57,300 nucleotides of DNA from a virus: positions 1-57,300 of the IMG/VR virus record IMGVR_UViG_3300049199_000008; one strand, written 5' to 3'. Made by a program: the position numbers and the translations under genes. Below the pieces are notes generated by a model. That model made no database searches, was not told the DNA's origin, and worked only from the letters and a program-made list of their open reading frames with translations. How positions within the stretch are numbered: position 1 is the first letter of the stretch; every line of letters begins with the position of its first letter. Positions 1 through 57,300 of the stretch are shown here, one piece after another.

Positions 1-142
1 CCCTGTGGTAACTGACCCTGTGGTAACTGACCCTGTGGTAACTGACCCTGTGGTAACTGACCCTGTGGTAACTGACCCTGTGGTAACTGACCCTGTGGTA
101 ACTGACCCTGTGGTAACTGACCCTGTGGTAACTGACCCTGTG
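1..142 (+). repeat. 15-bp tandem repeat ccctgtggtaactga, 9 full units plus a partial unit
   Basis: Perfect head-to-tail copies read directly; in frame, coding PVVTD. Identical to the array at 57191..57300. Confidence 0.95.
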
Positions 143-3961: not shown

Positions 3962-4035
3962 ACTCTAGCCGCACCTCTCACCGCTGTCAACTACTATTTT
4001 AAAATATTTATAACCCCTACCGCCAGTGTTATACT
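3962..4035. promoter_or_regulatory. Divergent promoter cassette
   Basis: Minus strand: TTGACA (3990-3985), 17 nt, TAGAGT (3967-3962). Shared palindrome TATTTTAAAATA. Plus strand: TTTATA (4007-4012), 17 nt, TG-n-TATACT (4027-4035). Confidence 0.55.
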
Positions 4036-14389: not shown

Positions 14390-17110
14390 ATGGCTACTTG
14401 CGATAATGTGCCTTTAGCGTCGCAGATTGAAGAATTTGTAGAGGATATGGCATATGTCCAGACGTTTGTAGAAACAGACGCACTGACTGCCACAACACCA
14501 CAGGGTAAAGTCCGTACCACACTTGCAGGCGTTGAGGCTGCTTCCGATGCAGCTATAGCCGCTGTAGGTTTTGTATTCCTCGACCCGCTAACATTTGAAA
14601 CAGGCGCAACACTGACAGGTGCAGAGCAGGCGCTTTACTGGTCGCCTGCTGATGGTGGTAACGGATTTTATTATCGTTGGTCTGGAGTGTTTCCTCCTGG
14701 TGGCAAGATTGTACCACCAGCATCAACGCCAGTTGGCGATCCGCTGTGGGTAGCCGTTCAAAACAACCTAAGCTATGTGCAGGACGATAGACCACCAACA
14801 AATACATTAATTGGCAGCCGCTGGTGGCAGACCAAGGTTGACGGAGCCGTTATTGCTCAAACGATGCTTAAGGTTAAGCTAAACGGCAATGCACACTGGC
14901 TGCAAGAGTTTGTAGTTGGTCAAAGCGGTAGCGCATCAAGCTACTTCCTCGACGAATATTGGCCCGATGCTGGTACTGGCGGTGATGACAGTGAGGCATT
15001 CTTGGCTGCTTTTGCTCAAAGTAAAGTTATTGAACTAACGCACGGTAAAACTTATTTGCTGGACCCCGCTCTATTTGTTGGTGAGATATTCGATACAATA
15101 GGCATGTTTTGCAAAGGTCGGGCAACCATTAAGTGCATCAATCAGTTGCCAGTAACAGACTTATACTTGCTGAATTTGCGCTTGTTATGGGGTGGTGATA
15201 TTTACGGTATTCACATAGATGGAAATCTGTCTGACGACCCAGTGACGTGGAATTCAAGCAATTACAATACGTGGTCAGGCTCTGGCGGTTTGCGCATTAT
15301 TGAGTCTGCAAACGTAAACTTAAAGCGCGTTTCTGCAAGCAACGTGTTCGGTCCCGGGCTTGCAGTTTCTTTATGTGAAAACGTGTCACTTGACCTAATA
15401 TACATTAATCGGTCCAGAGGAAACTTCGGTGATGGTATTTTCATTTCAGAATCAAAACGGATTACTCGTAAAAACTGTTATGTAGAGGATTTTACACGTA
15501 TTGCATTTACCACAGATAAAACCACTGGTGATGCCTGTGAGAATATAACCTCTGAAAACTGCTGGGCTGATTATGGTCATGATGCTTCTATAAACTATGG
15601 CGGTGGCGAGTACAATTCTTTGTTTTGGGACGAATTCTCCACTAAGCTGCATTACCACAACTGTGGCGGCACTCGCCCCGGCAATGGTCTAGCTCGTGGT
15701 TTTACTTTGCAAATGGCTGCAGATGCAACCGGGTTAACTCCAGAGATATTCAACTCCATCTATTCCAATACTTACGTAGATGGAGACGGAGAGGCTGGTT
15801 ACGGCTATATAATTTCAAGCCTTGGCGACACTCGCTTTACGTGCATACTCGATACAGCTATTGCTGTTAACTGCCAGATAAAGTTTGGCCTTCTTGGTAA
15901 TAAAAACTTATTCAAGCTAAGAGGCTGCGTCGGAGTCGATAGCACTGAGCTGGTGACTGGCGGGGTAGTAAGGCAAACCATCCTGTGGACTGGCGGCGAA
16001 ATATCAGTTGAAGGATGCAGAGAGTACATTAATTTACCGACTGGTAGATGGTCAGGGCTGGACGATGATGTTGCTATCTGCTCAATAGGAAGCTTCGACT
16101 TAGAGCGCCCTACAAGCGTCAGGGTTGTGGATTTTAAATCATACCAATTTGATACTGACGTTCAGATACCGAGCAGATTCCAGCATGATTTCGGCGAGCG
16201 TGCTGACTGGTATGTTGAGGACGCATGGCTTGATCAGGACTTGTTTGTTTGCCGAGACGGTAAGCATAGTAACACTCGCATAAGTGCATTTGGTTCAGTC
16301 GATGGCACTGGTGATATTGACTACGATAGTTGTAATTTAACGCTATCAAACCTGCCTGCTGGTGGCGTCGAGAAAGCCATACTGATAAATGAAACCGGAA
16401 CCGTAAAAATCAGAAACTGCACTGGCGAGATTACCGGAACTGACTCTATTTATTTGTTTAATAACGGTTTCAATAACTTAGGCCGCGTACAGATTTACGA
16501 CAATGTGATCACAAAAGAAATGGATCAAGCAACCGCAGTTGAGGGGGCTATCATTCGACTTAATGAGGCACCATCAGCTTTCAATACGTCTGATTTGCAG
16601 CACATTGATTTGAGCCGAAACACGTTTATAAACTCTGGCGCTGCCACATCTAACCCTATAGTTCACAGCTACCAAAGGGCAACTGTAGGCAACTCGGCAA
16701 CGGTACGGGTTTACGGTGAGAGCAACTATAAGTCAGCAAACATAGCTCAAGATGTAACACCAGGAGTTACCCGCATTCAGCTGATAGTCACATCATTTGA
16801 CGATTCTGCACCAACCGGAGCTTTAGCAGTAGTACCCATTGGTAGTGGCGGAAACCTGAAATGGGGAGCGTACAATCAAATATCTGGCAGTTACACGGTC
16901 ACGGCGCCTTTAGCTGCGTCTACCTATACTAATGGATTTTTAGTGATTTACGTGGCGGCCAGTGACGCCCCGCTAACACTGACTGTAAACCGAAGCGGAT
17001 CGGACTTATTTGAGCTTGGTGCCGGTACAGACACCTCAATAACACTTAACTTCACAGCTGCTGGATCTTACGTGATCAAGTCCAACGGCTCTAACAGATT
17101 GGAGATGTAA
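14390..17110 (+). CDS. Tailspike, probable polysaccharide depolymerase (right-handed beta-helix type)
   Basis: GAGGTG SD before ATG 14390. N-terminal YYRWSGVFPPGGKIVPPASTP motif is common in tailspikes. Long repetitive Asn/Gly-rich middle region. Confidence 0.7.
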   Translation: MATCDNVPLASQIEEFVEDMAYVQTFVETDALTATTPQGKVRTTLAGVEAASDAAIAAVGFVFLDPLTFETGATLTGAEQALYWSPADGGNGFYYRWSGVFPPGGKIVPPASTPVGDPLWVAVQNNLSYVQDDRPPTNTLIGSRWWQTKVDGAVIAQTMLKVKLNGNAHWLQEFVVGQSGSASSYFLDEYWPDAGTGGDDSEAFLAAFAQSKVIELTHGKTYLLDPALFVGEIFDTIGMFCKGRATIKCINQLPVTDLYLLNLRLLWGGDIYGIHIDGNLSDDPVTWNSSNYNTWSGSGGLRIIESANVNLKRVSASNVFGPGLAVSLCENVSLDLIYINRSRGNFGDGIFISESKRITRKNCYVEDFTRIAFTTDKTTGDACENITSENCWADYGHDASINYGGGEYNSLFWDEFSTKLHYHNCGGTRPGNGLARGFTLQMAADATGLTPEIFNSIYSNTYVDGDGEAGYGYIISSLGDTRFTCILDTAIAVNCQIKFGLLGNKNLFKLRGCVGVDSTELVTGGVVRQTILWTGGEISVEGCREYINLPTGRWSGLDDDVAICSIGSFDLERPTSVRVVDFKSYQFDTDVQIPSRFQHDFGERADWYVEDAWLDQDLFVCRDGKHSNTRISAFGSVDGTGDIDYDSCNLTLSNLPAGGVEKAILINETGTVKIRNCTGEITGTDSIYLFNNGFNNLGRVQIYDNVITKEMDQATAVEGAIIRLNEAPSAFNTSDLQHIDLSRNTFINSGAATSNPIVHSYQRATVGNSATVRVYGESNYKSANIAQDVTPGVTRIQLIVTSFDDSAPTGALAVVPIGSGGNLKWGAYNQISGSYTVTAPLAASTYTNGFLVIYVAASDAPLTLTVNRSGSDLFELGAGTDTSITLNFTAAGSYVIKSNGSNRLEM

Positions 17111-33025: not shown

Positions 33026-33312
33026 GAACGATGCCTAACTATCTTGAATTGTCTAAAGGCTGTTGCAAAGGTTGCCCGTTTAACGATGGTCTGACTGACG
33101 AAGCTTCTATCATTCAGAATTATGGTTGCCTACCTGATAAGTTTGATATAGTGGAAAACCACGAAAAACTAAATCAAGTGTGGGCTTGTCACGCTAAGCC
33201 ACATAAAGTTTGTCGTGGTTTAATAAACCATTGCAATGCCGAGAAATTACCAGTACCCGACCACCCAACAGCTGGGGAGACTTTCGGGGAATGGGGAGCG
33301 CCCACTGAATGA
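33022..33312 (+). CDS. Cys-rich small protein
   Basis: ATGA overlap with the upstream gene. CCKGCPF...GCLP...CH...C...HC. Confidence 0.55.
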   Translation: MRTMPNYLELSKGCCKGCPFNDGLTDEASIIQNYGCLPDKFDIVENHEKLNQVWACHAKPHKVCRGLINHCNAEKLPVPDHPTAGETFGEWGAPTE

Positions 33313-35690
33313 ACCTCGATAATTTACAACAAGCCGCCGCTGGCGGCCTTTCTATCCTTACGCTTTATCCGCAGTGGATGTGCTGGAAAGCTATACCGCC
33401 GGACGCCGATAACGCCCGCTGGAAAAAAGAGCTGGTAAACCCTCATACTGGGTATCGCGCCAGCCCCACTGATCCTGCTACATGGTCAGACTACGCTACC
33501 GCGCTTGCTTACGCCACGGCTAACGATATCGGTGTCGGCTTTGCGTTTACCGCAGACGATCCATTCTTTTTCGTTGACGTGGACGACTGTTACAACCATG
33601 ACACCGGCTGGTCGCCTATAGCTATAGAACTCTGTCAGCGGTTGCATGGCGCTTTTATGGAAGCGTCTGTATCTGGTACGGGTTTACACATTATCGGCGT
33701 CGGTAAGCGTCCTGACGGCTATATGGTGAAAGCGCCTATAGGCTTCGACGTGTACGAATGGGGGCGTTGGGTCGCTCTTACCGGTAACAGCGCCCAGGGT
33801 GATGCCAGCTTTGACCACAGTGTCGAGATTAACCGCATTGTGACGTCCTATATGCGACCTAAAGACACCAGTACCGCCAGTGAGTGGTCTGCGGGCCCCG
33901 TTGCGGAGTGGTCAGGGTATGCCGATGACGCCGAGCTGATCGCCGCTGCCCGCCGATCCAAGTCTGTGGCGGGCACGTTCGCTGGTAAAGCAACGTTCGA
34001 CGACCTGTGGTCTGCTAACACCGACGCACTGACGGCCAGTTATCCACATGACGCTAAGCCCGATACCTACGATGCCAGCGCCTGTGATGCTGCTTTATGC
34101 CAGCATTTAGCGTTCTGGACGGGTAAAGACTGTGAGCGCATCGACCGGTTATTCAGGCAGTCTGCGCTGATGCGTGACAAGTGGAACGACCGCCAGCAGT
34201 ACCGTGAAGATACAATTAACGGAGCGGTCAGCCGTTGCCGTTCAGTACACCAGCGGCCTCAGACGCCCGCCGAGCTGACTCATGCTGCTGTTAGCGCCCC
34301 AGTGCCGTCAGCCGCTGTCCGCCCACGTTACGCTTCCATAGTGAGCGGTCAGGGTGTGTATGGCGATGGTAAGGACACGCAGAACGCTGCTACGTTTATG
34401 CAGTGCTGGTATCCTGATAACACGCTGGTATTCGTCAAAGAGCAGGCGTACCGCTTTAACGGGCAGGTATGGGAGCTGGTTGATGAAGAAACGCTCAAGC
34501 ACGAGCTGACTGTGGCTATGTGGGCCAGCGAGCCGAAAGACGCGACTATTAACTCGGCGTTCCGCATGCTGCAAAAGCGTTGCACCGCACCGCACTTAAA
34601 GCCAGGTCATTGGGAAGGCCGCAACGTGAAGCATTTAACGGCGTGCCAAAACGGTATACTTGATGTCCACACAGGACAGCTTGAGCCGCATACGCCGCTA
34701 TTCTTCACTACCAGTATATTGCCGTACAGCTACACGCCGTCGGCCACTGCTCCAAACTGGCTGGAATTCCTGACAGCGGTATTCGAGGGTGACGCTCAGC
34801 GTGTGGCACTACTGCAGGAGTGGTTGGGCTATCAGCTTGTGACGGACTACAGCCATCATAAAGCGATGTTACTGGTTGGTGCGCCGCGTTCAGGTAAGGG
34901 CACTATTGGCCGCATACTGAACGCACTGGTCGGCGACTCGGCGTTTATGGGGATGACGTTAGACGGCTTCGCTCAGGATAAAACAATGGAAGCCGCTTTA
35001 AATAAATCCGTACTGTTTATCGGGGACGCCCACAGTGTATCGGGGCCGGACCGTAACCGGATCCTTGACAGACTTATGTCGATTACAGGTAACGACTCGC
35101 TAACGGTCGGGCGCTTATATAAGCAGTCATTCACCGGACAGTTACCAGGGCGTATTACTATAGCGGCCAACACCATACCGACATTCTTCGATGAGTCGGG
35201 TGCGTTCGGCAACCGGTTATTACTGTTACCGTTCAACCGCTCATGGCTTGGATCAGAGGACCCAACGTTGTTACAGCGGCTTATGGATGAGTTACCAGGT
35301 ATATGTAACTGGGCAATTGAAGGGTTACAGCGTCTACGGGCAACGGGCCGATTCACTGAGCCAGCGATATGCCGTGAAGAACGCGACGATATGATGGAGC
35401 AGCAAGCACCGTTATTGGCATTTATCCGTGCTGAGTGTGAACTGGGCGCTGGTTTAAAAGTGGGTAGCACTGACCTGTATAACCGTTATAGTCTGTGGTG
35501 TACGCAAAACCAGATGAAAGCTGGCAACCATAATAAATTTGCTCGCGAGCTTAAATCCACATTGCGTGGTCGCGGCGTGGTTAAAAAGCCGATTTACGTC
35601 GGCGGTAATACAGTGAACGGGTTCGAGGGCGTTGCACTGCGCGCCGTGGACGTAATGAGTAATGTAACGCCGATAGGGGCTGCGAGATGA
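33309..35690 (+). CDS. Primase-helicase (prim-pol/AEP N-terminus plus D5/P4-type SF3 helicase)
   Basis: FFFVDVDDC and SVSGTGLHIIG (AEP motifs). Walker A GAPRSGKGT. Confidence 0.85.
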   Translation: MNLDNLQQAAAGGLSILTLYPQWMCWKAIPPDADNARWKKELVNPHTGYRASPTDPATWSDYATALAYATANDIGVGFAFTADDPFFFVDVDDCYNHDTGWSPIAIELCQRLHGAFMEASVSGTGLHIIGVGKRPDGYMVKAPIGFDVYEWGRWVALTGNSAQGDASFDHSVEINRIVTSYMRPKDTSTASEWSAGPVAEWSGYADDAELIAAARRSKSVAGTFAGKATFDDLWSANTDALTASYPHDAKPDTYDASACDAALCQHLAFWTGKDCERIDRLFRQSALMRDKWNDRQQYREDTINGAVSRCRSVHQRPQTPAELTHAAVSAPVPSAAVRPRYASIVSGQGVYGDGKDTQNAATFMQCWYPDNTLVFVKEQAYRFNGQVWELVDEETLKHELTVAMWASEPKDATINSAFRMLQKRCTAPHLKPGHWEGRNVKHLTACQNGILDVHTGQLEPHTPLFFTTSILPYSYTPSATAPNWLEFLTAVFEGDAQRVALLQEWLGYQLVTDYSHHKAMLLVGAPRSGKGTIGRILNALVGDSAFMGMTLDGFAQDKTMEAALNKSVLFIGDAHSVSGPDRNRILDRLMSITGNDSLTVGRLYKQSFTGQLPGRITIAANTIPTFFDESGAFGNRLLLLPFNRSWLGSEDPTLLQRLMDELPGICNWAIEGLQRLRATGRFTEPAICREERDDMMEQQAPLLAFIRAECELGAGLKVGSTDLYNRYSLWCTQNQMKAGNHNKFARELKSTLRGRGVVKKPIYVGGNTVNGFEGVALRAVDVMSNVTPIGAAR

Positions 35691-35923
35691 GAGTAACGGT
35701 ATACACAGAAAAACCAAAATCCGGTAAAGGTAAATTGGCGTGGGAGAAATTTGAAAAACAAATGGGTCGCCCACCCTATAGCGTTGAATATTCACCTAAC
35801 TATGACCACGAGTATAAAGGCTGGATTTGTGAATACTTTCCGCCCGATGTATCAATCCCCATTCAGAGTGAGCAGGCTACACATGCTTTTTACTTAAGTA
35901 GTGAATTACAGGACACCGTATAA
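35687..35923 (+). CDS. Hypothetical protein
   Basis: ORF track, 78 aa; ATGA overlap. Confidence 0.55.
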   Translation: MRVTVYTEKPKSGKGKLAWEKFEKQMGRPPYSVEYSPNYDHEYKGWICEYFPPDVSIPIQSEQATHAFYLSSELQDTV

Positions 35924-35924
35924 C

Positions 35925-36119
35925 ATGACCGACTTTATAGACCAAACACTTGAACGCGAGGATCACATCCTAGAACAGCGTATAGCAGCCGCCAGACGCG
36001 TAACGCTACCGCCTGTAACTGGCCGATGCTTTAACTGTGATGAGCCGATAGCGGCGGGGCGGTTCTGCCCGGGCGGTGAGTGCCAAGAGGACTGGGAGAA
36101 GCGGGAGCGTGTCCGGTGA
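35925..36119 (+). CDS. TraR/DksA-type C4 zinc-finger protein
   Basis: CFNCDEPIAAGRFCPGGECQEDWEKRE. ATG 35925 lies just after the upstream stop. Confidence 0.6.
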   Translation: MTDFIDQTLEREDHILEQRIAAARRVTLPPVTGRCFNCDEPIAAGRFCPGGECQEDWEKRERVR

Positions 36120-37174: not shown

Positions 37175-37707
37175 ATGACTGAAAAACATACTGGGCTTTA
37201 AGCGTTGAAGATTCAGCGCAATACGCCCATGCTAAAGACGCTCAGATTAACGCACAAAAAGCGGCTAAAGAACACGTTCAACAATTTATAAAATGTGACG
37301 GTGTTTTTATATCAACTACCGGTACTGTCTACCTTGGTTACAAAACTAAACCTGACTTACCCGATCTGAAAAAGAAGCCTGACGGCGACCATGAAGGCTT
37401 TGCGTTATACACAGCCCGAGCTAAAACGCTAACGGCTGACATATTAAGTCAGGCCAGAAAATTAGCTTCTGAGGCGGTCAATTTTAGCGACTTCTGTCGT
37501 ACATTGTGGCCGTTAGCAGTACGTGAGGTTATGGGTTCAGGTAACAGTCCGCACTCGTTTACATTAACGCGCACGTCGTTTGGTTGGCTTTCAGATCGCG
37601 TAGTGATGATGTTACCTTTTAGCGATGAAGAAGCTATAGATACGTCTATAGTCCCGCTAGGATTTGTGGAGTTAACTGTATCTCAATACGCTGAGTTAAG
37701 CCGTTAA
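37175..37707 (+). pseudogene. Hypothetical gene interrupted after 8 codons; a -1 shift at an A5 run restores a 177-aa ORF
   Basis: ATG 37175 reads MTEKHTGL then stop. The -1 frame is open from 37190 to 37707. A5 run at 37182-37186. Confidence 0.5.
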
Positions 37708-37728: not shown

Positions 37729-37753
37729 GCCCGCCGCGTGCGGGCTTTTTTTT
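37729..37753 (+). terminator. Rho-independent terminator ending the replication block
   Basis: GCCCGC / GCGGGC stem, 5-nt loop, T8. Confidence 0.8.
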
Positions 37754-37773: not shown

Positions 37774-37964
37774 TGTTAATCTCATCTTTTCTGTTAACAC
37801 CAAAGTAACACGCGGTATATCAGCCGCCTGCAAATGTTAATCTCAACTTGTAGCAGCAACATAAGTTAACAGATTGTTAATCTCAAATCCTAGCATTAAC
37901 AATTCATCTACAACACCGTTACCCACATCAGGTAAAATTGTTAATCCCAGACGTAGCATTAACA
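37774..37964. promoter_or_regulatory. Array of four 26-27 bp inverted-repeat boxes (putative operator/iteron sites)
   Basis: TGTTAATCYCA-N4-5-T(A/G/C)(G/T)(C/G)(A/T)(T/G)(T/C)AACA at 37774-37799, 37835-37861, 37875-37901 and 37939-37964. Arms TGTTAAT / ATTAACA are reverse complements. Confidence 0.6.
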
Positions 37965-37994
37965 TTGTTAACAATTATTTAACCATGAAATCTA

Positions 37995-38241
37995 AATGTT
38001 TGTTCTATTAGTGGGTACAGAAAATAGTTTGGATATTGCACTTTAAAGTAAACCTTGCACTTTAAAGTGAAAGACAGAAGTGCTTGATTCCACACGTAAA
38101 ATCCCTACTTCTTTTACTTCTTATATATTTTTCTTATAACTTTTATAAATAAAGAAATAGTATATAAAGTATACAATAAAGAGATATTAGAAAAGATATA
38201 TAGAAAATGTATATGAAGTGCAAGGACTTCTTTTAGGTACA
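37995..38241. repeat. AT-rich ORF-less element, copy A (copy B at 53554..53800)
   Basis: Colinear, gap-free alignment with copy B; about 15 substitutions by eye. Contains 4 GCACTT motifs and the palindrome CACTTTAAAGTG. Confidence 0.9.
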
Positions 38242-38341
38242 ACTTCCATTCTGTTAACAAACTCATAACAACCCGTTGTTGTGGCAATCCGCGCCGAGTT
38301 GCGTTACACTGACCCTACCAAAACTTACAGGAGCTTAACCG

Positions 38342-38998
38342 ATGACCGACCTGACCGTAGAGCAGCGTCAGGACCTACCAGAACTGACAGAACGCCAGAA
38401 GCGTGCAGCAGCTGAACTGAACCCGTATCAACTGGAATTCGCTAGGCGGTGGTTAGAGCGTCACGTTTCTGGCGATTCTGAGGCCGCGTGCTACCTTGCA
38501 GCGTATCCAAACGCTTCGGACTACAAGGGGGCCAGCGTAAACGCCGGACGCATCCTGAAGCTTCCCAAGGTGCAAGAATTCATCGAGGCAATGCAGGAAA
38601 CTGGAACACTCAAATCAACCGTTGCGACGCTGGAAGAAATCCAGGAGCAGCTGACCGAGACTATCCGGGCTGACATCACGGAGATCGTCGAGTGGGATAC
38701 CACCGATGCGGGTGAGCCGATACCAGTGATTAAAAATCTGTCCGAGCTTGAACCGCGATTACGCCGCTTGGTCAAGTCGATTACGTGGACCAAGAACGGC
38801 CCGAAAATCGAGCTACACGACGCCAGCAAAGCGCAGGACATGCTGATCCGGATGCAGGGGGGCTACAAGGACCGCCTAGAGCTTGGGGGTTCGGTCGTAA
38901 GCGCTACGGTTGAGCTGGACGCATCCGACCCGCTCAAGGCTGCTGCGGATTACACCGCGATGATCAGGGGGCTTGACGCCGCTGGCGGAAAGCGTTAA
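38342..38998 (+). CDS. terS: Terminase small subunit
   Basis: QLEFARRWLE...SEAACYLAAYPNASDYKGASVNAGRILKLPKVQEFI resembles the Terminase_2-type N-terminal HTH region. GGAG SD. Confidence 0.7.
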   Translation: MTDLTVEQRQDLPELTERQKRAAAELNPYQLEFARRWLERHVSGDSEAACYLAAYPNASDYKGASVNAGRILKLPKVQEFIEAMQETGTLKSTVATLEEIQEQLTETIRADITEIVEWDTTDAGEPIPVIKNLSELEPRLRRLVKSITWTKNGPKIELHDASKAQDMLIRMQGGYKDRLELGGSVVSATVELDASDPLKAAADYTAMIRGLDAAGGKR

Positions 38999-51119: not shown

Positions 51120-51161
51120 TGCTATACTACCGCCACACTGCAGCTAGCCGTGCTATACTAC
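51120..51161 (+). promoter_or_regulatory. Two tandem TGCTATACTAC extended -10 boxes
   Basis: Identical 11-mers at 51120-51130 and 51151-51161. Confidence 0.45.
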
Positions 51162-51352
51162 AGGTAGACGGCGGATAAAAGGACTATGCGCTGACTGACC
51201 ACACGGCTCGGTTAAATTGATCAACTATTTAAGCTAAGACTGTGACGGATGATACTGAGTCGACCCGTAAAATATCTGGTAACCCGAGACGAAAGTGGGT
51301 ATGGATACTCGTTAAGCGACGTAATTCGGCTGTCTGGATAGGGTAACGCTAT

Positions 51353-51370
51353 AGCCGCCTTCGGGCGGCT
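51353..51370 (+). other. GC-rich TTCG-tetraloop hairpin
   Basis: AGCCGCC-TTCG-GGCGGCT, with only one or two T after it. Confidence 0.6.
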
Positions 51371-51373
51371 TCA

Positions 51374-51384
51374 TGCTATACTAC
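51374..51384 (+). promoter_or_regulatory. Third TGCTATACTAC extended -10 box
   Basis: Identical 11-mer, 29 nt before ATG 51414. Confidence 0.45.
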
Positions 51385-51413
51385 GCCCACCACCACCACC
51401 GGAGCCTCGCGCC

Positions 51414-52716: not shown

Positions 52717-53075
52717 TATTTCAGCTCCTCTGGTATTTCTACGGTTTTACCTAGTTTAAGAGTTACTACAGCGCGGCAGATTGCTATTAATGCTGTTGGG
52801 CCTTCAGACTTCCCACGACACCATTCATCGTCGTAAGCCTTAGCTAACCATTGCGACTGTGGGAATTTCTCAAGAAACACATGGTATTTGTCAATTAACG
52901 GGCCACCCTGCGTCCAATTGGTCGACGGGGAGAACCCATCTTCATAGACCTGAATATCATCTTTAAAATATTCAATATCATTTGAATTATAAAGAGCAGC
53001 TACTAAACCAATGGACATAGCCACGCACCAATCAAGTGCCGCACCTGTTAACTCACTTACGCTTACTGTAGCCAC
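52716..53075 (-). CDS. DUF2591 (NinX-like) protein
   Basis: LTGAALDWCVA...FSPSTNWTQGGPLI...GPTALIAICRAVV. Confidence 0.6.
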   Translation of the reverse strand: MATVSVSELTGAALDWCVAMSIGLVAALYNSNDIEYFKDDIQVYEDGFSPSTNWTQGGPLIDKYHVFLEKFPQSQWLAKAYDDEWCRGKSEGPTALIAICRAVVTLKLGKTVEIPEELK

Positions 53076-53428: not shown

Positions 53429-53507
53429 CTGCTATTTTTAATTGTTAACAATCGTGAACTATTCATTAACATATCATCTATATGCGGTTCCCGATAATCC
53501 CGACAGA

Positions 53508-53534
53508 TGTTAATCCCATCTTTTGGCATTAACA
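53508..53534. promoter_or_regulatory. Inverted-repeat box of the same type as the 37774..37964 array
   Basis: TGTTAATCCCA-tcttt-TGGCATTAACA. Partial TGTTAACA / CATTAACA copies at 53443-53472. Confidence 0.55.
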
Positions 53535-53553
53535 AGTTTGACAACTATTTAAC

Positions 53554-53800
53554 AATGTTTGTTCTATTAGTAGGTACAGAAAATAGTTTGGATATTGCAC
53601 TTTAACACAAACCTTGCACTTTAAAGTGAAAGACGGAAGTGCCTGATTCCACACATAAAATCCACACTTCTTTTACTTCTTATATATTTTTTCTATAACT
53701 TTTATAAATAAAGAAATAGTATATAAAGTATACAAATAAAGGATATTAGAAAAGATATATAGAAAATGTATATGAAGTGCAAGGACTTCTTTTAGGTACA
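53554..53800. repeat. AT-rich ORF-less element, copy B
   Basis: See copy A (37995..38241). Same orientation and same length. Confidence 0.9.
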
Positions 53801-53819
53801 CGTAACACATCGTTAACAA

Positions 53820-53848
53820 TTGCACTAGCGTACAGCCAGTGGTAAACT
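53820..53848 (+). promoter_or_regulatory. Promoter of the protease-scaffold-capsid operon
   Basis: TTGCAC (53820-53825), 17 nt, TG-g-TAAACT (53840-53848). Confidence 0.5.
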
Positions 53849-53871: not shown

Positions 53872-54261
53872 GTGGAAATGATCAAAGTCAGCACTCAGAT
53901 GCAACTCGTATTCGGTTGGGGTCAGGTCTGCACGAAAAACGGCGAGCTGTATTTCGACACCGATAACCAGGCATTCCCCGAGGACGTCACGCTCAAGGGC
54001 TGGACGGACTTCATGCGTGGCGATACCCGAACGCACAAAGCCATGCACGCTGGGGCCGAAGTTGGACAGGTCGTTTACGCCTTCCCGATGCTGTCAGACA
54101 TCGCAAAATCTTTAGGCTTTGAAAACCTGCCGCAAACTGGTATACTCGTTGGTGTTTACGTGGCAGACCCGACGACATTACAGAAATTTGCGTCAGGCGA
54201 GTACACAGGTTTCAGCATTGGCGGTAGCGCCGTATGGGAGGACGTACCAAATGCGGTTTGA
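53872..54261 (+). CDS. XkdF-like prohead protease domain protein
   Basis: VFGWGQV...D.D...H...GEYTGFSIGG pattern resembles the XkdF (S78_2) family. Alternative ATG at 53878. Confidence 0.6.
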   Translation: MEMIKVSTQMQLVFGWGQVCTKNGELYFDTDNQAFPEDVTLKGWTDFMRGDTRTHKAMHAGAEVGQVVYAFPMLSDIAKSLGFENLPQTGILVGVYVADPTTLQKFASGEYTGFSIGGSAVWEDVPNAV

Positions 54262-55225
54262 CGGAAAGACAAATCCACAGGTAGCCACAAGCCTTAAAAT
54301 CGGCGAGCTGTCTGGCGTTACCGTACCAGCCCACGAAGGTGCGGGAGTCACTATCATGAAATTCGGCGCTGACGTCGATACGCTGATTAAATCCATGTTC
54401 GCTGAAGAACTGGCCGACGAGCAGATGGAAGCCGCCGTACGTGCTTGGTTAGACCCACTGTGGACTTACAACTACGCCCTGCGTGAAGCTGCTGAAAAAA
54501 TCATGCAAGACACTACCGTTACGGATAAACGCGGAGCAATTCGCGAATCGGTGACGGATTACTTACGACACGTTATCGAACTTTTTAACAACCAACCGGA
54601 GGCCGCAACAATGGCTGATAACACAGAACTGGAGCTTTACAAAGCCCTGGCGCAGATGACGGATGCCCACAAGGCACACTATCAGTCGTTGCCGGAAGCC
54701 GATAAAGCTGATTTCTTAAAACTGGACGGCGCCAGCCGCGACTTGATTGTCAAGTCTGCTACGGTCGCTGATGAAACCCACACGATGCTTGACGGCACTG
54801 TGATTGCTAAATCCGCTGTAGGCGCTTCGTTCGCTATCCTGAAGTCGCAAGATGCTCAGTTGCGTAAGATGCGTGAAGAGCAGGAATTAGCGAAAGCAAT
54901 CACCGCCGTATCTGTGGACTTCGGTAACTTACCGGGCGAACCTATGGCAAAAGCGAAAGCTGTTATGGGCCTGAACGCTCTTGACGCTGCTACCCGTACT
55001 TGGGTAACGGATACGCTGAAAGCTGCTGACGGCTTGTACAAAGCCCGTCGCGAGCCTGCTGGTGACCCAGCCGCTGTGGACACTGGTGAAGCGCCTGACG
55101 CTAAGCTGGAAAAAATGGCTAAAGCTCATGCCGAAACCCACAAAGTTTCGTTCGCTGCTGCGTACTCAGAGGTCATGAAGACCGAAGAAGGCCGCGCACT
55201 GTATCAACAATCGCTGGAGGGCTAA
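54251..55225 (+). CDS. Scaffolding protein
   Basis: Helical, Ala/Glu/Lys-rich, 324 aa, between the protease and capsid genes. GGGAGG SD. Confidence 0.6.
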   Translation: MRFDGKTNPQVATSLKIGELSGVTVPAHEGAGVTIMKFGADVDTLIKSMFAEELADEQMEAAVRAWLDPLWTYNYALREAAEKIMQDTTVTDKRGAIRESVTDYLRHVIELFNNQPEAATMADNTELELYKALAQMTDAHKAHYQSLPEADKADFLKLDGASRDLIVKSATVADETHTMLDGTVIAKSAVGASFAILKSQDAQLRKMREEQELAKAITAVSVDFGNLPGEPMAKAKAVMGLNALDAATRTWVTDTLKAADGLYKARREPAGDPAAVDTGEAPDAKLEKMAKAHAETHKVSFAAAYSEVMKTEEGRALYQQSLEG

Positions 55226-55228
55226 TTC

Positions 55229-55600
55229 ATGGCTCATGAAACCGCGTTACAATCCTTTAGCGCTAAAGCTGGTGCAGACCTGTCAGCGCTACAGTATACG
55301 TTCGTAACCATTAACAGCTCAGGTGAGTGTGTGGCAGCTTCTGCTAACTCGCTGGCCGTAGGTGTGCTGCAAAATAACCCAGTATTGGGTGACGCTGCTG
55401 CCATTGCTGTAAACGGTGAGACAAAAATTAAACTGGGCGCTACTTTAAGCCCTGGCGCAGTTGTCGAAGTAGGCACAGGCGGTAAAGCCGCTGCTGCCAC
55501 AGGTGCTGGTTCTTATGTCATGGGCGTCCTGACATTAGGCGGTGCTGATACTGAGATCGGCAGCATGGTAATTCGCACAGCTGGCCCACTGGCAGCGTAA
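55229..55600 (+). CDS. DUF2190-like head decoration/cement protein
   Basis: 123 aa, Gly/Ala-rich. LQYTFV...GVLQN...AV.GETK pattern. Directly upstream of the major capsid gene. Confidence 0.6.
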   Translation: MAHETALQSFSAKAGADLSALQYTFVTINSSGECVAASANSLAVGVLQNNPVLGDAAAIAVNGETKIKLGATLSPGAVVEVGTGGKAAAATGAGSYVMGVLTLGGADTEIGSMVIRTAGPLAA

Positions 55601-55610
55601 GGAGTTCTGA

Positions 55611-56588
55611 ATGAAACCTACCTCATCACAGGTACATGTTAACCGCCCGCTAACGAATATCTCGATTGCGTTTATTCAGCAAGCGGAAATGTTCGCAGCT
55701 GGTCGTGTATTCCCAATGGTGCCAGTTGAGTCAAAGAGTGATTTATATTTCATCTTTGATAAAGCTGATATGCACCGTAACGATATGCGCCCACGCGCAC
55801 CGGGCACTGAGTCTGCTGGCTCTGGCTTCGGTATCAGCACTGACAACTATTTCACCAAGCGTTATGACTTGCACAAAGACATCGCTGATGAAATCCGTGC
55901 AAACGCTGATGACCCGTTAGACTTAGACCGCGCGGCCACTGAGTTCCTGGTCGGCCAGTCATTAATTCAGCGTGAAGCTACCTTCGCACTGGCTTACATG
56001 GCACAGGGCGTATGGTCGCTGGACTATGAAGGTGTGGCAGCAAGCCCGACGGGCTCACAAGTGCTGAAATGGTCTGACGATGCGTCTGATCCTGTGGCTG
56101 ATATTAAGAAAGCTACAACTGCTATCCACAAGTTAACGGGTTTCCGCCCTAATACTCTGACGATGGCTCAGGACGTACGCGATGCTTTAGACACTAACCC
56201 GTCTATCATTGACCGATTGAAGTACGGCCAGACAGCTCCAGGCGCTGTGATTGTGACTGACGCTGACTTAGCGCGCGTATTTGGTGTAGCCCGGATCATC
56301 GTATCAGGCGCCATCATCAACAACGCTAACGAAGGCGCAGCAGCTAACAACGACTTTGTTATCAAAGGCGGCGCACTGTTGACGTACTCAGCACCATCAC
56401 CATCACTGATGGCTCCGTCAGCTGGTTACACATTTACTTGGCGCGGTCTGTTAGGCAACAACGAAGGTGTCCGCGTGAAGCGTTTCCGTATGGAAGCTTT
56501 AGAGTCGGATCGCGTCGAGATTGCTTTAGCATACGACCAGAAAAAAGTATCTGCTGACTTAGGCGCATACTTCCGCACGCTGGTGTAG
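55611..56588 (+). CDS. Major capsid protein (HK97-fold, lambda E-like family)
   Basis: 325 aa after scaffold and decoration genes. N-terminal NISIAFIQ...VFPMVPV pattern. Strong terminator downstream. Confidence 0.8.
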   Translation: MKPTSSQVHVNRPLTNISIAFIQQAEMFAAGRVFPMVPVESKSDLYFIFDKADMHRNDMRPRAPGTESAGSGFGISTDNYFTKRYDLHKDIADEIRANADDPLDLDRAATEFLVGQSLIQREATFALAYMAQGVWSLDYEGVAASPTGSQVLKWSDDASDPVADIKKATTAIHKLTGFRPNTLTMAQDVRDALDTNPSIIDRLKYGQTAPGAVIVTDADLARVFGVARIIVSGAIINNANEGAAANNDFVIKGGALLTYSAPSPSLMAPSAGYTFTWRGLLGNNEGVRVKRFRMEALESDRVEIALAYDQKKVSADLGAYFRTLV

Positions 56589-56611
56589 TTAGCCGGTAGC
56601 GTAACAAGACG

Positions 56612-56645
56612 GCCCGCCCCGTAAGGTAGCGGGCTGTTTTTATTT
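56612..56645 (+). terminator. Rho-independent terminator after the capsid gene
   Basis: GCCCGC / GCGGGC stem, 11-nt loop, then TGTTTTTATTT. Confidence 0.7.
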
Positions 56646-56977: not shown

Positions 56978-57300
56978 ATGACGTATAAATTTGAAGATTT
57001 AGACTTTAACCGTCCGCTGCTGGTAAATACGCCGTTTACGTTTAACGGTCGTGCGTATCAGATCGGCGAATCGTTCCCGTGGCAGCGTATGGCTATCAGC
57101 AAGCATATCGTAGCGCGTCTGTGGAATGCCCGCAAAGTCCGCCACACACTCCAGGGCGCTAGCGCAGGCGCTGATCTGACCGTACCTCTGGACCCTGTGG
57201 TAACTGACCCTGTGGTAACTGACCCTGTGGTAACTGACCCTGTGGTAACTGACCCTGTGGTAACTGACCCTGTGGTAACTGACCCTGTGGTAACTGACCC
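56978..57300 (+). CDS. N-terminal part of the PVVTD-repeat protein (continues at 1..328)
   Basis: GGAG SD and ATG 56978. The ORF has no stop before the window end and runs into the 15-bp repeat. Confidence 0.7.
   Translation, partial: MTYKFEDLDFNRPLLVNTPFTFNGRAYQIGESFPWQRMAISKHIVARLWNARKVRHTLQGASAGADLTVPLDPVVTDPVVTDPVVTDPVVTDPVVTDPVVTDPVVTD
57191..57300 (+). repeat. 15-bp tandem repeat (7.3 units), same array as 1..142
   Basis: 57193-57300 is identical to 1-108. Confidence 0.95.

What the first reader, a model, noticed from the sequence alone, without database searches (positions are those of the whole stretch)
37995..38241. Duplicated ~247-bp AT-rich non-coding element upstream of both late operons (top candidate for something undescribed)
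37995-38241 and 53554-53800 align end to end without gaps. I counted about 15 substitutions by eye. The copies are in the same orientation, 15.5 kb apart, in a genome that has almost no other non-coding DNA. Neither copy has a credible ORF. The element has two parts. The left ~110 bp has moderate GC and carries four GCACTT motifs (two per strand), the palindrome CACTTTAAAGTG and nested pairing potential (GGA..GCACTT / AAGTGC..TCC); all of the substitutions in this half but one (it breaks the first of the two adjacent TTTAAAGT copies, 38044-38051) fall outside these motifs. The right ~135 bp is more than 75 percent A+T, purine-skewed, with phased A-tracts and TATATA runs. Copy A follows the strong terminator of the replication block and precedes terS. 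Copy B precedes the protease-scaffold-capsid operon. Retention of two near-identical copies argues for function. Possibilities are a cis-acting late-transcription control region (activator site plus bent DNA, or a put/qut-like RNA element), a structured ncRNA, or an origin/packaging element. I cannot distinguish these from sequence.
Basis: seen in the sequence. Interest (0 to 1): 0.85.

Follow-up and report, generated by a model that had tools for sequence, protein, structure and literature searches.

The report
Shared AT-rich control module, late operons
The two near-identical 247-bp stretches are real, and they are this phage's version of an uncharacterised AT-rich DNA module that sits in front of the small-terminase gene and the head-gene operon in the relatives examined from across the 9NA-like phage group, most likely as a shared late-gene control region.

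Summary
The repeat is confirmed: 37995-38241 and 53554-53800 align without gaps with 15 mismatches, and two other samples support it. It is not peculiar to this genome. The window is a 9NA-like/Sashavirus-like siphovirus. Isolates 9NA, Solent, phi_270, RS10pmA and Mulvp2 and one metagenomic clade carry the same kind of element before both terS and the XkdF prohead-protease operon; other relatives were seen at one site only.

The shared layout is lineage-specific operator-like repeats, a G-free T-rich arm, a near-palindromic T-run/ATA/A-run junction, a C-free purine-rich arm, more operators, a weak sigma70-type -10, then the gene. The pair is old. Its near-identity here, in RS10pmA (99%) and in one metagenomic clade points to repeated gene conversion.

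Not supported: a structured RNA (arm pairing no better than arm composition; no Rfam hit), helically phased A-tracts, and a conserved small ORF.

Best reading (about 0.45): a regulator-dependent late-promoter module. Main rival (about 0.2): an iteron plus unwinding-element origin, which the mirror-symmetric strand bias fits equally well. No function has been shown. I found no published description, but the main 9NA-like genomics paper could not be read.

The parts
37995..38241 (+).
   Evidence: Ungapped alignment with 53554-53800, 15 mismatches in 247. Spanned by the independent assembly L006.
53554..53800 (+). Copy B of the high-identity repeat
   Evidence: (family D4). The Logan contig L008 starts 30 nt before the right boundary.
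37894..38260 (.). Extended region of A/B similarity around copy A (partner 53464-53819)
   Evidence: Local alignment: 351 nt aligned, 89.2% identity, 10 gap blocks including an 11-bp indel between the operator unit and the core.
37774..37964 (+). Array of four operator-like units, TGTTAATC(T/C)CA followed about 7-8 nt later by a GCA..AACA half (only 37774 and 37939 fit the strict TGTTAAT-N12-ATTAACA dyad), starting at 37774, 37835, 37875 and 37939
   Evidence: Exact TGTTAATCNCA occurs only here and at 53508 in the whole window. Dyad form shown.
53508..53534 (+). Single operator-like unit TGTTAATCCCA..GGCATTAACA before copy B
   Evidence: inverted repeat I10.
38003..38020 (+). Motif TTCTATTAGTGGGTACAG, conserved in L013, L019 and L027 (partner 53562-53579)
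   Evidence: Only two matches in the window at up to 3 mismatches. Seen in relatives.
38036..38083 (.). Cluster of GCACTT half-sites: TTGCACTTTAAAGT twice, palindrome CACTTTAAAGTG and an inverted AAGTGC (partner 53595-53642)
   Evidence: The AAAGTGAAA core is shared with Proteus phage RS10pmA, where 13 sites occur only in its two elements, and with L027.
38097..38153 (+). G-free, T-rich arm (partner 53646-53712)
   Evidence: G-free runs of 57 and 67 nt. These are the only G-free runs of 40 nt or more in the window. Composition profile.
38140..38154 (.). Junction CTTTTATAAATAAAG, a near-palindromic T-run/ATA/A-run (partner 53699-53713)
   Evidence: The switch point from T-rich to A-rich. An equivalent junction is present in 15 or more elements from relatives.
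38146..38222 (+). Purine-rich, C-poor arm with loose ATA(A/G)A(A/G) repeats (C-free run 38175-38220; partner 53705-53781)
   Evidence: (family D1).
38215..38234 (+). GAAGT-GCAAGG-ACTTC hairpin followed by TTTT. It contains the right-hand GCACTT site, and AAGTGCAAGG is a 10-bp inverted partner of CCTTGCACTT at 38053-38062 (partner 53774-53793)
   Evidence: Sequence. Inverted repeats I1/I16 and I12. The simple scan did not call it a terminator.
38252..38259 (.). TGTTAACA half-operator downstream of copy A (partner GTTAACA 53812-53818)
38281..38310 (+). GTGGCAATC..TTGCGTTACACT block with a -10-like TACACT (38305-38310), about 30 nt before the terS ATG
   Evidence: Conserved in L013, L010 and L015, where the rest of the spacer cannot be aligned. 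It lacks a consensus -35 and is not called by the sigma70 scan.
53820..53848 (+). TTGCAC, 17-nt spacer, TAAACT with TG (TGGTAAACT): a proximal promoter-like site about 30 nt before the protease ATG
   Evidence: Sequence. It resembles the genome's own extended -10 class TGnTAtACTA (D5, 80).
38342..38998 (+). terS, a one-gene transcription unit because a minus-strand gene follows
   Evidence: PHROG 51 and Pfam Terminase_2. Gene map.
53878..56588 (+). Head unit of four genes: XkdF-like prohead protease, a 324-aa protein of unknown function (54251-55225), a 123-aa head-scaffolding protein and the major capsid protein. A terminator-like hairpin plus T-run follows at about 56600-56640
37729..37745 (+). 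Intrinsic terminator closing the replication block, upstream of the operator array

Best explanation
The repeat is the cis-regulatory DNA module that heads two late transcription units of a 9NA-like siphovirus: terS alone, and the four-gene head unit from the protease to the capsid gene.

Proposed working.
- Shown: both units lack a consensus sigma70 promoter and have only a -10-like hexamer close to the gene.
- Inferred: they therefore depend on a phage-encoded sequence-specific DNA-binding regulator.
- Shown that the sites exist, inferred that a protein binds them: the regulator recognises the lineage-specific repeats on both sides of the AT-rich core. Here these are GCACTT/CACTTTAAAGTG and TGTTAAT..ATTAACA.
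- Inferred: the core lies between these sites and the promoter. It is the most easily melted and most flexible DNA in the genome. It serves as upstream promoter DNA, either as an extended UP-like platform for RNA polymerase alpha subunits or nucleoid proteins, or as a bendable spacer that lets operator-bound regulator and polymerase communicate. It may itself hold back-to-back start sites at the palindromic T-run/ATA/A-run junction.
- Inferred from comparison: the 94% identity of the two copies in this genome reflects recent gene conversion between two anciently paralogous modules. It is not a recent insertion.
For: 1. Position. In every relative examined the element lies about 100-410 nt before the terS or XkdF-protease start codon. 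This holds for the window, L013, L010/L019, L015/L020, Solent, SP069, phi_270, 9NA, RS10pmA, Henu15 and Mulvp2. The distance to the primase-helicase gene varies from 2.3 to 5 kb, with different genes in between.
2. In L019 the element ends 17 nt before the protease ATG. The promoter must therefore lie in or upstream of the element there.
3. No consensus sigma70 promoter precedes terS or the protease gene. The rest of the genome uses ten AAAATANNNGTTGACA promoters and extended -10 promoters.
4. Operator-like repeats are confined to the two regions, and each genome has its own type at both regions.
5. In KarinMuster_Bas82 core B is absent. An ordinary UP/TTGAC promoter heads the operon instead, so the element is interchangeable with a promoter.
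6. The A/B pair is ancient, since Solent B matches phi_270 B better than Solent A. It has nevertheless been homogenised in three lineages: the window 94%, RS10pmA 99.3% over 268 nt, and the ERR733 clade 92.5%.
Against: - No transcript, start site or protein binding has been observed. Everything rests on sequence and comparison.
- No regulator gene was identified among about 50 ORFs scanned with Pfam or PHROGs.
- The mirror-symmetric strand bias (G-free left arm, C-free right arm) implies a constraint on single strands. Duplex binding by alpha subunits or nucleoid proteins does not explain it. It fits bidirectional melting, whether by divergent transcription or at a replication origin.
- Decent -10 elements lie downstream of the core in most genomes. 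The role of the core itself is therefore undefined.
- terS and head genes need very different expression levels, yet they share the module.
Confidence: 0.45

Rival explanations
1. The elements are replication origins, or an origin plus a second cis site as in P4 ori/crr. The operator-like repeats would be iterons for a phage initiator. The AT core would be the DNA-unwinding element. Two SF3-type primase-helicase hexamers (793-aa protein, 33309-35690) would load at the junction and move outwards 3'->5' on the T-rich, G-free strands.
For: - The anatomy matches an iteron-plus-unwinding-element origin: repeats flank both sides of the least stable DNA in the genome.
- The mirror-symmetric strand bias puts a pyrimidine-rich, G-free strand in the tracking position for outward-moving 3'->5' helicases on both sides (geometry is my inference).
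- The phage encodes a primase-polymerase/D5_N/SF3 helicase like P4 alpha and SaPI Rep.
- Copy A lies at the end of the replication module.
Against: - The elements track the starts of terS and the protease gene, not the primase gene, which lies 2.3-5 kb away behind variable genes.
- Origins of this class usually lie in or next to the initiator gene (general knowledge of SaPI, N15 and P4).
- No segment of the primase-helicase is more similar between the window and RS10pmA, which share the AAAGTGAAA site, than between the window and Solent, which has a different site.
- In L019 the element abuts a ribosome-binding site.
- KarinMuster has replaced core B with a promoter.
Confidence: 0.2
2. The element acts as RNA. 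It would be a long 5' leader or separate small RNA transcribed from a promoter at its left edge. The U-rich arm would pair with the purine-rich arm, closed by CCUUGCACUU/AAGUGCAAGG and followed by a short hairpin plus U4. This would give put/qut-like antitermination, an RNase III site, or a Rho-shielding leader.
For: - The whole element folds into one long hairpin with z = -2.4 (+ strand) and -2.9 (- strand) against dinucleotide shuffles.
- A different inverted repeat brackets core A in 9NA: 16 bp, TGTTATCTGTAACTAA/TTAGTTACAGATAACA.
- L013, L019 and Solent A have a TATACT-type -10 just left of the T-rich arm.
- In L019 the element must be transcribed or contain the promoter.
- The strand-specific composition suggests selection on a single strand.
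Against: - Arm-to-arm duplex energy is no better than shuffles that keep each arm's composition: z from -0.2 to -1.7, none below the 5% level, in 8 elements.
- Arm lengths do not match in several relatives: 36 against 94 nt in L020B and 32 against 60 nt in phi_270 A.
- No compensatory pattern appears among the A/B differences.
- Both strands fold equally well.
- The bracketing inverted repeats are copies of motifs that also occur as direct repeats nearby, which is how protein sites behave.
- There is no Rfam match in the element, even at E <= 1.
- No Q-like gene was seen.
Confidence: 0.12
3. Copy A is, or contains, the pac recognition region for headful packaging, with the repeats as TerS binding sites. 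Copy B would be a second TerS-binding site or a decoy.
For: - It lies immediately upstream of terS, with many repeats there: four in the window, five or more in Solent and several in 9NA.
- From my memory of the abstract of Zeng et al. 2019, 9NA packages by a pac-directed headful mechanism with cuts spread over about 170 bp. I could not read the paper.
Against: - A second near-identical copy before the protease gene, conserved across genera, is not expected for pac.
- Copy B has few of the A-type repeats.
- The location of pac in 9NA could not be checked.
Confidence: 0.05
4. The purine arm encodes a small hydrophobic protein on the minus strand, for example a type I toxin or a membrane peptide. 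The candidates are 38267->38118 (50 aa) in copy A and 46 aa in copy B.
For: A stop-free frame with an ATG is open in both copies. A 46-50-codon open frame in DNA that is about 80% A+T is unlikely by chance. The product would be one hydrophobic helix plus a basic tail. Long stop-free minus-strand frames also occur in L019, L020 and L015.
Against: - In the ERR733 clade the open frame differs between copy A and copy B across identical DNA, because the indel is not a multiple of 3.
- L019 has no ATG and L013 has no long frame.
- All A/B differences inside the frame change the amino acid.
- The N-termini lie outside the repeat and are unrelated.
- There is no convincing ribosome-binding site.
- The JGI gene caller called nothing here.
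- The pyrimidine-rich strand simply lacks stop codons in more than one frame.
Confidence: 0.03

Closest known systems
Activator-dependent late promoters that share one upstream module within a phage genome (Mu Plys/PI/PP/Pmom with C; P2/P4 late promoters with Ogr/Delta; phi29 A3 with p4)
   Same: Several late transcription units in one genome carry the same upstream sequence. They have a weak or absent -35. Dyad or repeated sites for a phage-encoded regulator sit just upstream. In phi29 the regulator works on AT-rich, deformable DNA.
   Different: The shared unit here is far longer, at 250-350 bp against 20-60 bp. It contains a strand-asymmetric AT core with no counterpart in those systems. 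No regulator gene has been identified. Only two of the late units carry it.
Iteron plus AT-rich unwinding-element origins used by primase-helicase initiators (SaPI ori, P4 ori and crr, lambda ori)
   Same: Repeats with replicon-specific sequence flank or adjoin an AT-rich, easily melted segment. P4 needs two separated cis sites that bind the same protein. As I recall it, the AT-rich part of lambda ori also has a purine/pyrimidine strand bias. The phage encodes a D5/SF3-type primase-helicase.
   Different: The elements follow the late genes rather than the initiator gene. One abuts a ribosome-binding site in a relative. One has been replaced by a plain promoter in KarinMuster. There is no sign of initiator/iteron co-variation.
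Phage T4 ori(uvsY)/ori(34) and the T7 primary origin (a promoter followed by an AT-rich unwinding element, where the transcript primes replication)
   Same: A promoter-like site is followed by AT-rich DNA whose transcript would be purine-rich. This would reconcile the promoter and origin readings.
   Different: Nothing here shows an R-loop or priming. Those origins are not duplicated at the heads of late operons.
Lambda pR'-qut-tR' late leader with Q, and the HK022 putL/putR RNAs
   Same: A long non-coding stretch lies between the regulatory site and the first late gene. HK022 has two similar copies serving two operons. A short hairpin plus T-run ends the element here.
   Different: There is no conserved two-stem put fold, no Rfam hit and no detected Q-like gene. 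Pairing is no better than composition predicts. The hairpin plus T4 is not conserved in relatives.
gal-type repression loop (operators on both sides of a promoter, with HU bound to the AT-rich apex)
   Same: Sites for one regulator bracket about 110-160 bp of flexible AT-rich DNA that contains or adjoins the promoter.
   Different: This is an analogy of layout only. The orientation of the flanking sites varies between relatives, being inverted in the window, 9NA and RS10pmA and direct in phi_270 and Henu15.

Membership tests
HK022 put-type or other structured cis-acting RNA | A specific conserved secondary structure supported by pairing beyond composition, or by covariation | tested here: not met
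   Arm-arm duplex energies lie within shuffles that keep arm composition, for 8 elements. The A/B differences are not compensatory. Arm lengths are unequal in relatives. There is no Rfam match.
Lambda Q/qut late antitermination | A Q-family antiterminator gene, and a promoter-embedded Q-binding element followed by a terminated leader | tested here: inconclusive
   No Q-like Pfam or PHROG hit among about 50 ORFs scanned, but not every ORF was scanned. A hairpin plus T4 exists at 38215-38234. The terminator scan does not call it and it is absent from relatives.
Activator-dependent phage late promoter module | Lies directly upstream of late structural or packaging operons, at the same place in relatives | tested here: met
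   About 100-410 nt before the terS and XkdF-protease start codons in relatives spanning several genera (and the calls cited there).
Activator-dependent phage late promoter module | Core promoter lacks a consensus -35 while other promoters in the genome have one | tested here: met
   No sigma70-type site is called before terS or the protease gene. Ten UP+TTGACA promoters occur elsewhere.
Activator-dependent phage late promoter module | Repeated or dyad sites specific to these promoters, with a cognate phage regulator | tested here: inconclusive
   The sites are exclusive to the two regions. No regulator gene was identified.
Iteron plus unwinding-element replication origin | Repeated binding sites adjacent to an AT-rich, easily melted segment | tested here: met
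Iteron plus unwinding-element replication origin | Linked to, and co-varying with, the initiator gene | tested here: not met
   The distance to the primase-helicase gene varies from 2.3 to 5 kb. The sliding-window identity profile shows no segment that follows the operator type. This is a weak test, because the initiator could be another protein.
Iteron plus unwinding-element replication origin | Replication starts there | not testable with these tools
   Needs marker-frequency analysis, 2D gels or nascent-strand mapping.
Classical UP element or intrinsically curved upstream DNA | An A/T block at -40 to -60 next to the -35, or A-tracts phased at 10-11 bp | tested here: not met
   There is no 10-11.5 bp periodicity in any of 7 elements. 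The AT core is 120-150 nt long and ends about 40 nt upstream of the candidate -35 of copy B.
Type I toxin or small membrane-protein gene | A reading frame conserved between copies and between relatives | tested here: not met
   The frame differs between L010 A and L019 B over identical DNA. L019 has no ATG and L013 has no long frame.
pac site | A single site where packaging series begin, bound by TerS | not testable with these tools
   Two conserved copies argue against it. The published 9NA pac mapping could not be read.

The most novel reading that the evidence does not exclude
The AT core is a dedicated bidirectional DNA-opening site. Its palindromic T-run/ATA/A-run junction is flanked by arms in which each strand, read 5'->3' away from the junction, is purine-rich and C-free, so the opposite strand (the template, or the strand tracked by an outward-moving 3'->5' helicase) is pyrimidine-rich and G-free. 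It would serve either as a pair of origins for the SF3 primase-helicase, or as a replication- or unwinding-coupled late promoter class. Such a class would tie terS and head-gene expression to DNA replication, possibly with the TraR/DksA-like RNA-polymerase-binding protein encoded at 35901-36119.
Probability: 0.15. Interest if true: 0.75.

Novelty: new variant of a known kind. Interest (0 to 1): 0.5.

Why it matters
Gene regulation and replication of the 9NA-like, Sashavirus and Gorganvirus siphoviruses are essentially unstudied. These phages infect Salmonella, E. coli, Klebsiella, Proteus and Morganella, and several are being considered for biocontrol or therapy.

This analysis turns a single odd repeat into a defined cis-module conserved across the relatives examined. 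It sits at the two places where packaging and head-assembly genes begin. Its architecture is clear: lineage-specific operators, then a mirror-symmetric G-free/C-free AT core.

The module is present in cultured phages with tractable hosts, 9NA on Salmonella LT2 and RS10pmA on Proteus mirabilis. The question of whether it is a late promoter, an origin or both can therefore be settled with standard experiments.

The repeated homogenisation of two copies about 15 kb apart is also a clean example of gene conversion inside a virulent phage genome. It is a known hazard for k-mer assemblers, whose contigs break exactly there.

Tried and rejected
- Nucleotide searches with the element against INPHARED phages, PLSDB plasmids and complete E. 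coli genomes found nothing. The element evolves too fast for BLASTN. Relatives were reached through the flanking proteins instead.
- An exact-pattern scan of IMG/VR and protein-anchored scans of IMG/VR, JGI metagenome contigs and GTDB genomes gave only distant relatives or none.
- Rfam gave no family at gathering thresholds over the whole window, and none at E <= 1 over copy A and its flanks. The only weak matches lie on the upstream terminator.
- There are no tRNA or tmRNA genes.
- The long-hairpin idea was rejected as a selected structure after arm-preserving shuffles and inspection of the A/B differences.
- The bent-DNA or phased A-tract idea was rejected by spectral analysis.
- The minus-strand small ORF was rejected on frame inconsistency between copies and relatives.
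- Third copies were sought by motif and by composition. None exists in the window. The third AT island in Solent is an ordinary TTGACA promoter.
- I tried to identify the operator-binding protein by comparing proteomes of phages that share or differ in operator type, and by a domain-wise identity profile of the primase-helicase. Neither gave a signal.
- Pfam and PHROG scans of about 50 ORFs found no recognisable transcription regulator, sigma factor or Q-like protein.
- Literature searches on Casjensviridae, Mulvp2, 9NA-like phages, Sashavirus, phage 9NA promoters, RS10pmA and PmiS-Isfahan found no description of the element. The key paper, Zeng et al. 2019 (PMC6819911), is not held.
- Sigma54 and T4-late (TATAAATA) readings of the motifs were considered by eye. 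I dropped them because the spacing does not fit sigma54, and because the junction varies (TATAGATA, TTAAATA) and no gp55-like gene was seen.
Full report

Yes. 37995-38241 and 53554-53800 align end to end without gaps, with 15 mismatches in 247 (93.9% identity). The copies are in the same orientation and 15,559 bp apart.

Weaker similarity extends on both sides: 37894-38260 against 53464-53819, 351 nt aligned at 89%. It takes in an operator-like dyad to the left and a GTTAACA to the right. It also includes an 11-bp indel.

GC is 0.34 in the left 110 bp and 0.20 in the right 137 bp, in a genome of 50% GC. These are the only two extreme AT islands in the window.

The repeat is not an assembly artefact.
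- The terS protein is found on contigs from other samples.
- A JGI contig (L006) spans copy A with identical sequence.
- Logan contigs from two runs begin exactly 30 nt (k-1) before the point where the A and B right flanks diverge. That is the signature of a true repeat with two distinct flanks.

**2. What genome is this?**

The window is a circular 57.2-kb metagenomic contig (JGI 3300071358), opened inside a coding 15-bp tandem array.

Its genes match a 9NA-like/Sashavirus-like virulent siphovirus:
- terS, terL, portal and a Mu-F-like head protein;
- XkdF-type prohead protease, scaffold and major capsid protein;
- tail genes;
- family A DNA polymerase, an Enc34-type single-strand-binding protein, a DEAD-box helicase and a 793-aa primase-polymerase/D5/SF3 primase-helicase.

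The nearest isolates share only 26-59% protein identity. They are Enterobacter phage Mulvp2, Salmonella phages Solent, SP069 and 9NA, Klebsiella phage phi_270, and Proteus phage RS10pmA.

Copy A follows the intrinsic terminator that closes the replication block (37729-37745). It precedes terS, which is a one-gene unit. Copy B lies in a divergent intergenic region. It precedes a four-gene head unit: protease, a 324-aa protein of unknown function, scaffold and major capsid protein. That unit ends at a terminator-like hairpin plus T-run.

**3. The element is a feature of this phage group, not a peculiarity of this genome.**

BLASTN finds nothing. Walking out from the flanking proteins shows the same kind of element at the same two positions in relatives.
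- Metagenomic relatives: L013 upstream of terS; L010 (terS) with L019 (protease) from one clade; L015 (terS) and L020 (protease).
- Isolates: Solent, SP069, phi_270, 9NA, RS10pmA and Henu15. Mulvp2 and a Vibrio phage carry a reduced form.

The common layout has seven parts.
1. Short repeats of lineage-specific sequence that look like protein-binding sites.
2. A T-rich arm with almost no G.
3. A near-palindromic junction of the form T-run/ATA/A-run. Here it is CTTTTATAAATAAAG at 38140-38154.
4. A purine-rich arm of 60-115 nt with almost no C.
5. More of the same repeats.
6. In most cases, a -10-like hexamer 25-40 nt before the start codon.
7. The gene, either terS or the protease gene.

In the scan behind, the left 40 nt held no G in 12 of 19 elements. 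The right 60 nt held at most one C in 11 of 19. In the whole window only the two copies reach the score threshold.

Because a T-rich then A-rich sequence is its own reverse complement in composition, the core is mirror-symmetric. On each side, the strand read 5'->3' away from the junction is purine-rich and C-free.

**4. History of the two copies.**

A matrix of local alignment scores and pairwise alignments show that the A/B pair is old. Solent B is closer to phi_270 B than to Solent A, and phi_270 A and B are barely alignable.

In three separate lineages the two copies are nearly identical over the whole module:
- the window, 94% over 247 nt;
- RS10pmA, 99.3% over 268 nt;
- the L010/L019 clade, 92.5% over the part available.

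Intermediate cases are 9NA (87% over 82 nt) and Solent (81% over 112 nt).

This is the pattern of recurrent gene conversion between two paralogous sites.

**5. The short repeats.**

In the window, exact TGTTAATCNCA occurs at four places before copy A and once before copy B, and nowhere else.

TTGCACTTTAAAGT, the palindrome CACTTTAAAGTG and the 18-mer TTCTATTAGTGGGTACAG occur only in the two copies.

Other phages have other motifs at both of their elements.
- RS10pmA has AAAGTGAAAC/GTTTCACTTT: 13 sites, all within its two elements. Its core, AAAGTGAAA, is shared with the window and with L027.
- phi_270 has GGTAAGCYGTAAC.
- 9NA has TGTTATCTGTAAC, including a perfect 16-bp inverted pair that brackets core A.
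- Henu15 has TGCAACA.

Motifs that are exclusive to the two regions, vary by lineage, and occur in both direct and inverted orientation behave like binding sites for a sequence-specific protein. I could not identify that protein.
- Scans of about 50 ORFs gave no regulator.
- Proteome comparison gave no regulator candidate either. One 72-aa Zn-finger ORF (35901-36119) is shared with RS10pmA and absent from Solent. It resembles an RS10pmA ORF annotated as DksA/TraR-like, and such proteins bind RNA polymerase rather than DNA.
- The primase-helicase shows no segment whose similarity follows operator type.

**6. What was tested and rejected.**

*Structured RNA.* The element folds as one long hairpin, with z = -2.4 and -2.9 on the two strands. 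This is a by-product of the composition switch.
- Duplex energies between the two arms fall within shuffles that preserve each arm's composition, in all 8 elements tested (z from -0.2 to -1.7).
- Arm lengths are unequal in relatives.
- The A/B differences are not compensatory.
- Rfam finds nothing.

*Bent DNA.* There is no 10-11 bp periodicity of A-tracts in any of 7 elements.

*Small ORF.* A 46-50-codon minus-strand frame is open in both copies. However, the open frame differs between the two copies of the L010/L019 clade over identical DNA. L019 has no ATG and L013 has no long frame. Every A/B difference inside the frame changes the amino acid.

**7. Most likely function.**

I favour a late-gene control module, with confidence about 0.45.

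Shown:
- the elements follow the starts of terS and the protease gene in every genome, while their distance from the primase gene varies from 2.3 to 5 kb;
- these two units lack the consensus sigma70 promoters used elsewhere in the genome;
- in L019 the element ends 17 nt before the ATG;
- in KarinMuster_Bas82 core B is missing and an ordinary UP/TTGAC promoter takes its place.

Inferred:
- a phage regulator binds the flanking repeats;
- the AT core acts as upstream promoter DNA, as a bendable spacer, or as the melting site, possibly with back-to-back start sites.

**8. The main rival and the unexplained feature.**

The mirror-symmetric exclusion of G on one side and of C on the other is not explained by proteins that bind duplex AT-rich DNA. 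It points to a process that separates the strands and proceeds outwards in both directions.

Divergent transcription is one such process. Most of these regions are divergent intergenic regions.

Origin unwinding is another. With an SF3 (3'->5') helicase, the tracked strand on both sides would be the T-rich, G-free one. Repeats flanking an AT-rich segment are also the anatomy of SaPI, P4 and lambda origins.

I give the origin reading about 0.2. The elements track the late genes rather than the initiator gene. One abuts a ribosome-binding site in a relative. One has been replaced by a promoter.

A combined reading remains open: a promoter-driven origin as in T4 or T7, or late promoters coupled to replication.

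**9. Novelty and limits.**

The element is present but unannotated in published genomes: 9NA, Solent, SP069, phi_270, RS10pmA and Henu15. I found no description of it.

The main genomics paper on 9NA-like phages (Zeng et al. 2019) could not be read. Prior description therefore cannot be excluded, and the position of the 9NA pac site relative to core A remains unchecked.

No transcript, binding or replication data were available. Every functional statement above is inference from sequence and comparison.

Noticed in passing
window 1-142 and 57193-57300 (ORF 56979-57300 continuing at 5-328): Both window ends carry the same 15-bp tandem array, CCCTGTGGTAACTGA. It encodes DPVVT pentapeptide repeats inside one ORF. 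The window is therefore a circular contig (57,245 bp) opened inside a coding tandem repeat, and the copy number of the array is probably uncertain.
   Followed up: partly
window 3985, 6741, 28084, 31770, 31989, 37090, 40318, 43227, 53423, 56924: Ten AAAATANNNGTTGACA sites (read on the promoter strand), against 0.1 expected by chance. These are UP-like A/T blocks fused to a consensus -35. They mark the phage's ordinary sigma70 promoters. Four of them lie in a 55-nt back-to-back promoter module repeated at 3982, 6738, 31767 and 40315.
   Followed up: partly
window 51120-51390: Three copies of TGCTATACTAC (an extended -10 of the TGnTATACT type) lie in the 381-bp gap before the Mu-F-like head-morphogenesis gene (51414). 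One follows a GC-rich hairpin. These may be tandem promoters for another late unit that lacks the AT-rich element.
   Followed up: no
window about 37551-37621: A 71-bp segment present in the window is absent from the otherwise identical independent assembly L006 (JGI 3300049198). It falls inside the weak ORF 37504-37707, which suggests that this ORF is not a conserved gene.
   Followed up: no
window 35901-36119 (+): A 72-aa ORF just after the primase-helicase gene has a CxxC...CxxxxC zinc-finger pattern. It is 33% identical to RS10pmA ORF73, which is annotated as a DksA/TraR-like RNA-polymerase-binding protein. It is absent from Solent and has no Pfam hit at E <= 0.01. It could be a modulator of host RNA polymerase.
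   Followed up: partly
window 37984-37994 (CATGAAATCTA): The only sizeable indel between the two regulatory regions is 11 bp. It lies between the last operator dyad and the high-identity core. That is about one helical turn, so the rotational phasing of operator and core is kept.
   Followed up: no
whole window compared with L029 (Mulvp2), L027, L032 (Solent), L041 (RS10pmA): The genome is mosaic. The major capsid protein is closest to Mulvp2 and L027 (about 55%) and only 26-29% identical to Solent and RS10pmA. The DNA polymerase is 48-52% identical to RS10pmA and Solent with no Mulvp2 match, and the helicase is 54-55% against 41% for Mulvp2.
   Followed up: partly
L044-L046 (Salmonella phage 9NA, KJ802832): record about 52855-52869 plus 1-83, and about 16005-16108: The prototype phage 9NA carries both AT cores. 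Position 1 of its GenBank record falls inside core A. Core A is bracketed by a perfect 16-bp inverted repeat, TGTTATCTGTAACTAA/TTAGTTACAGATAACA. Both cores contain tandem ATAGATAGT units.
   Followed up: partly
L031 (Escherichia phage KarinMuster_Bas82) 1060-1140: This relative has no AT core before the head operon. An extra gene (Bas82_0033) and a standard AAAATAATTCTTGAC promoter occupy the position.
   Followed up: partly
window 38267-38118 (-) and 53825-53673 (-): Stop-free minus-strand frames of 50 and 46 codons from an ATG cross the purine arm. They would encode a hydrophobic helix followed by KIYKK. I judge them non-coding (see the rival explanations), but this has not been disproved experimentally.
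   Followed up: yes
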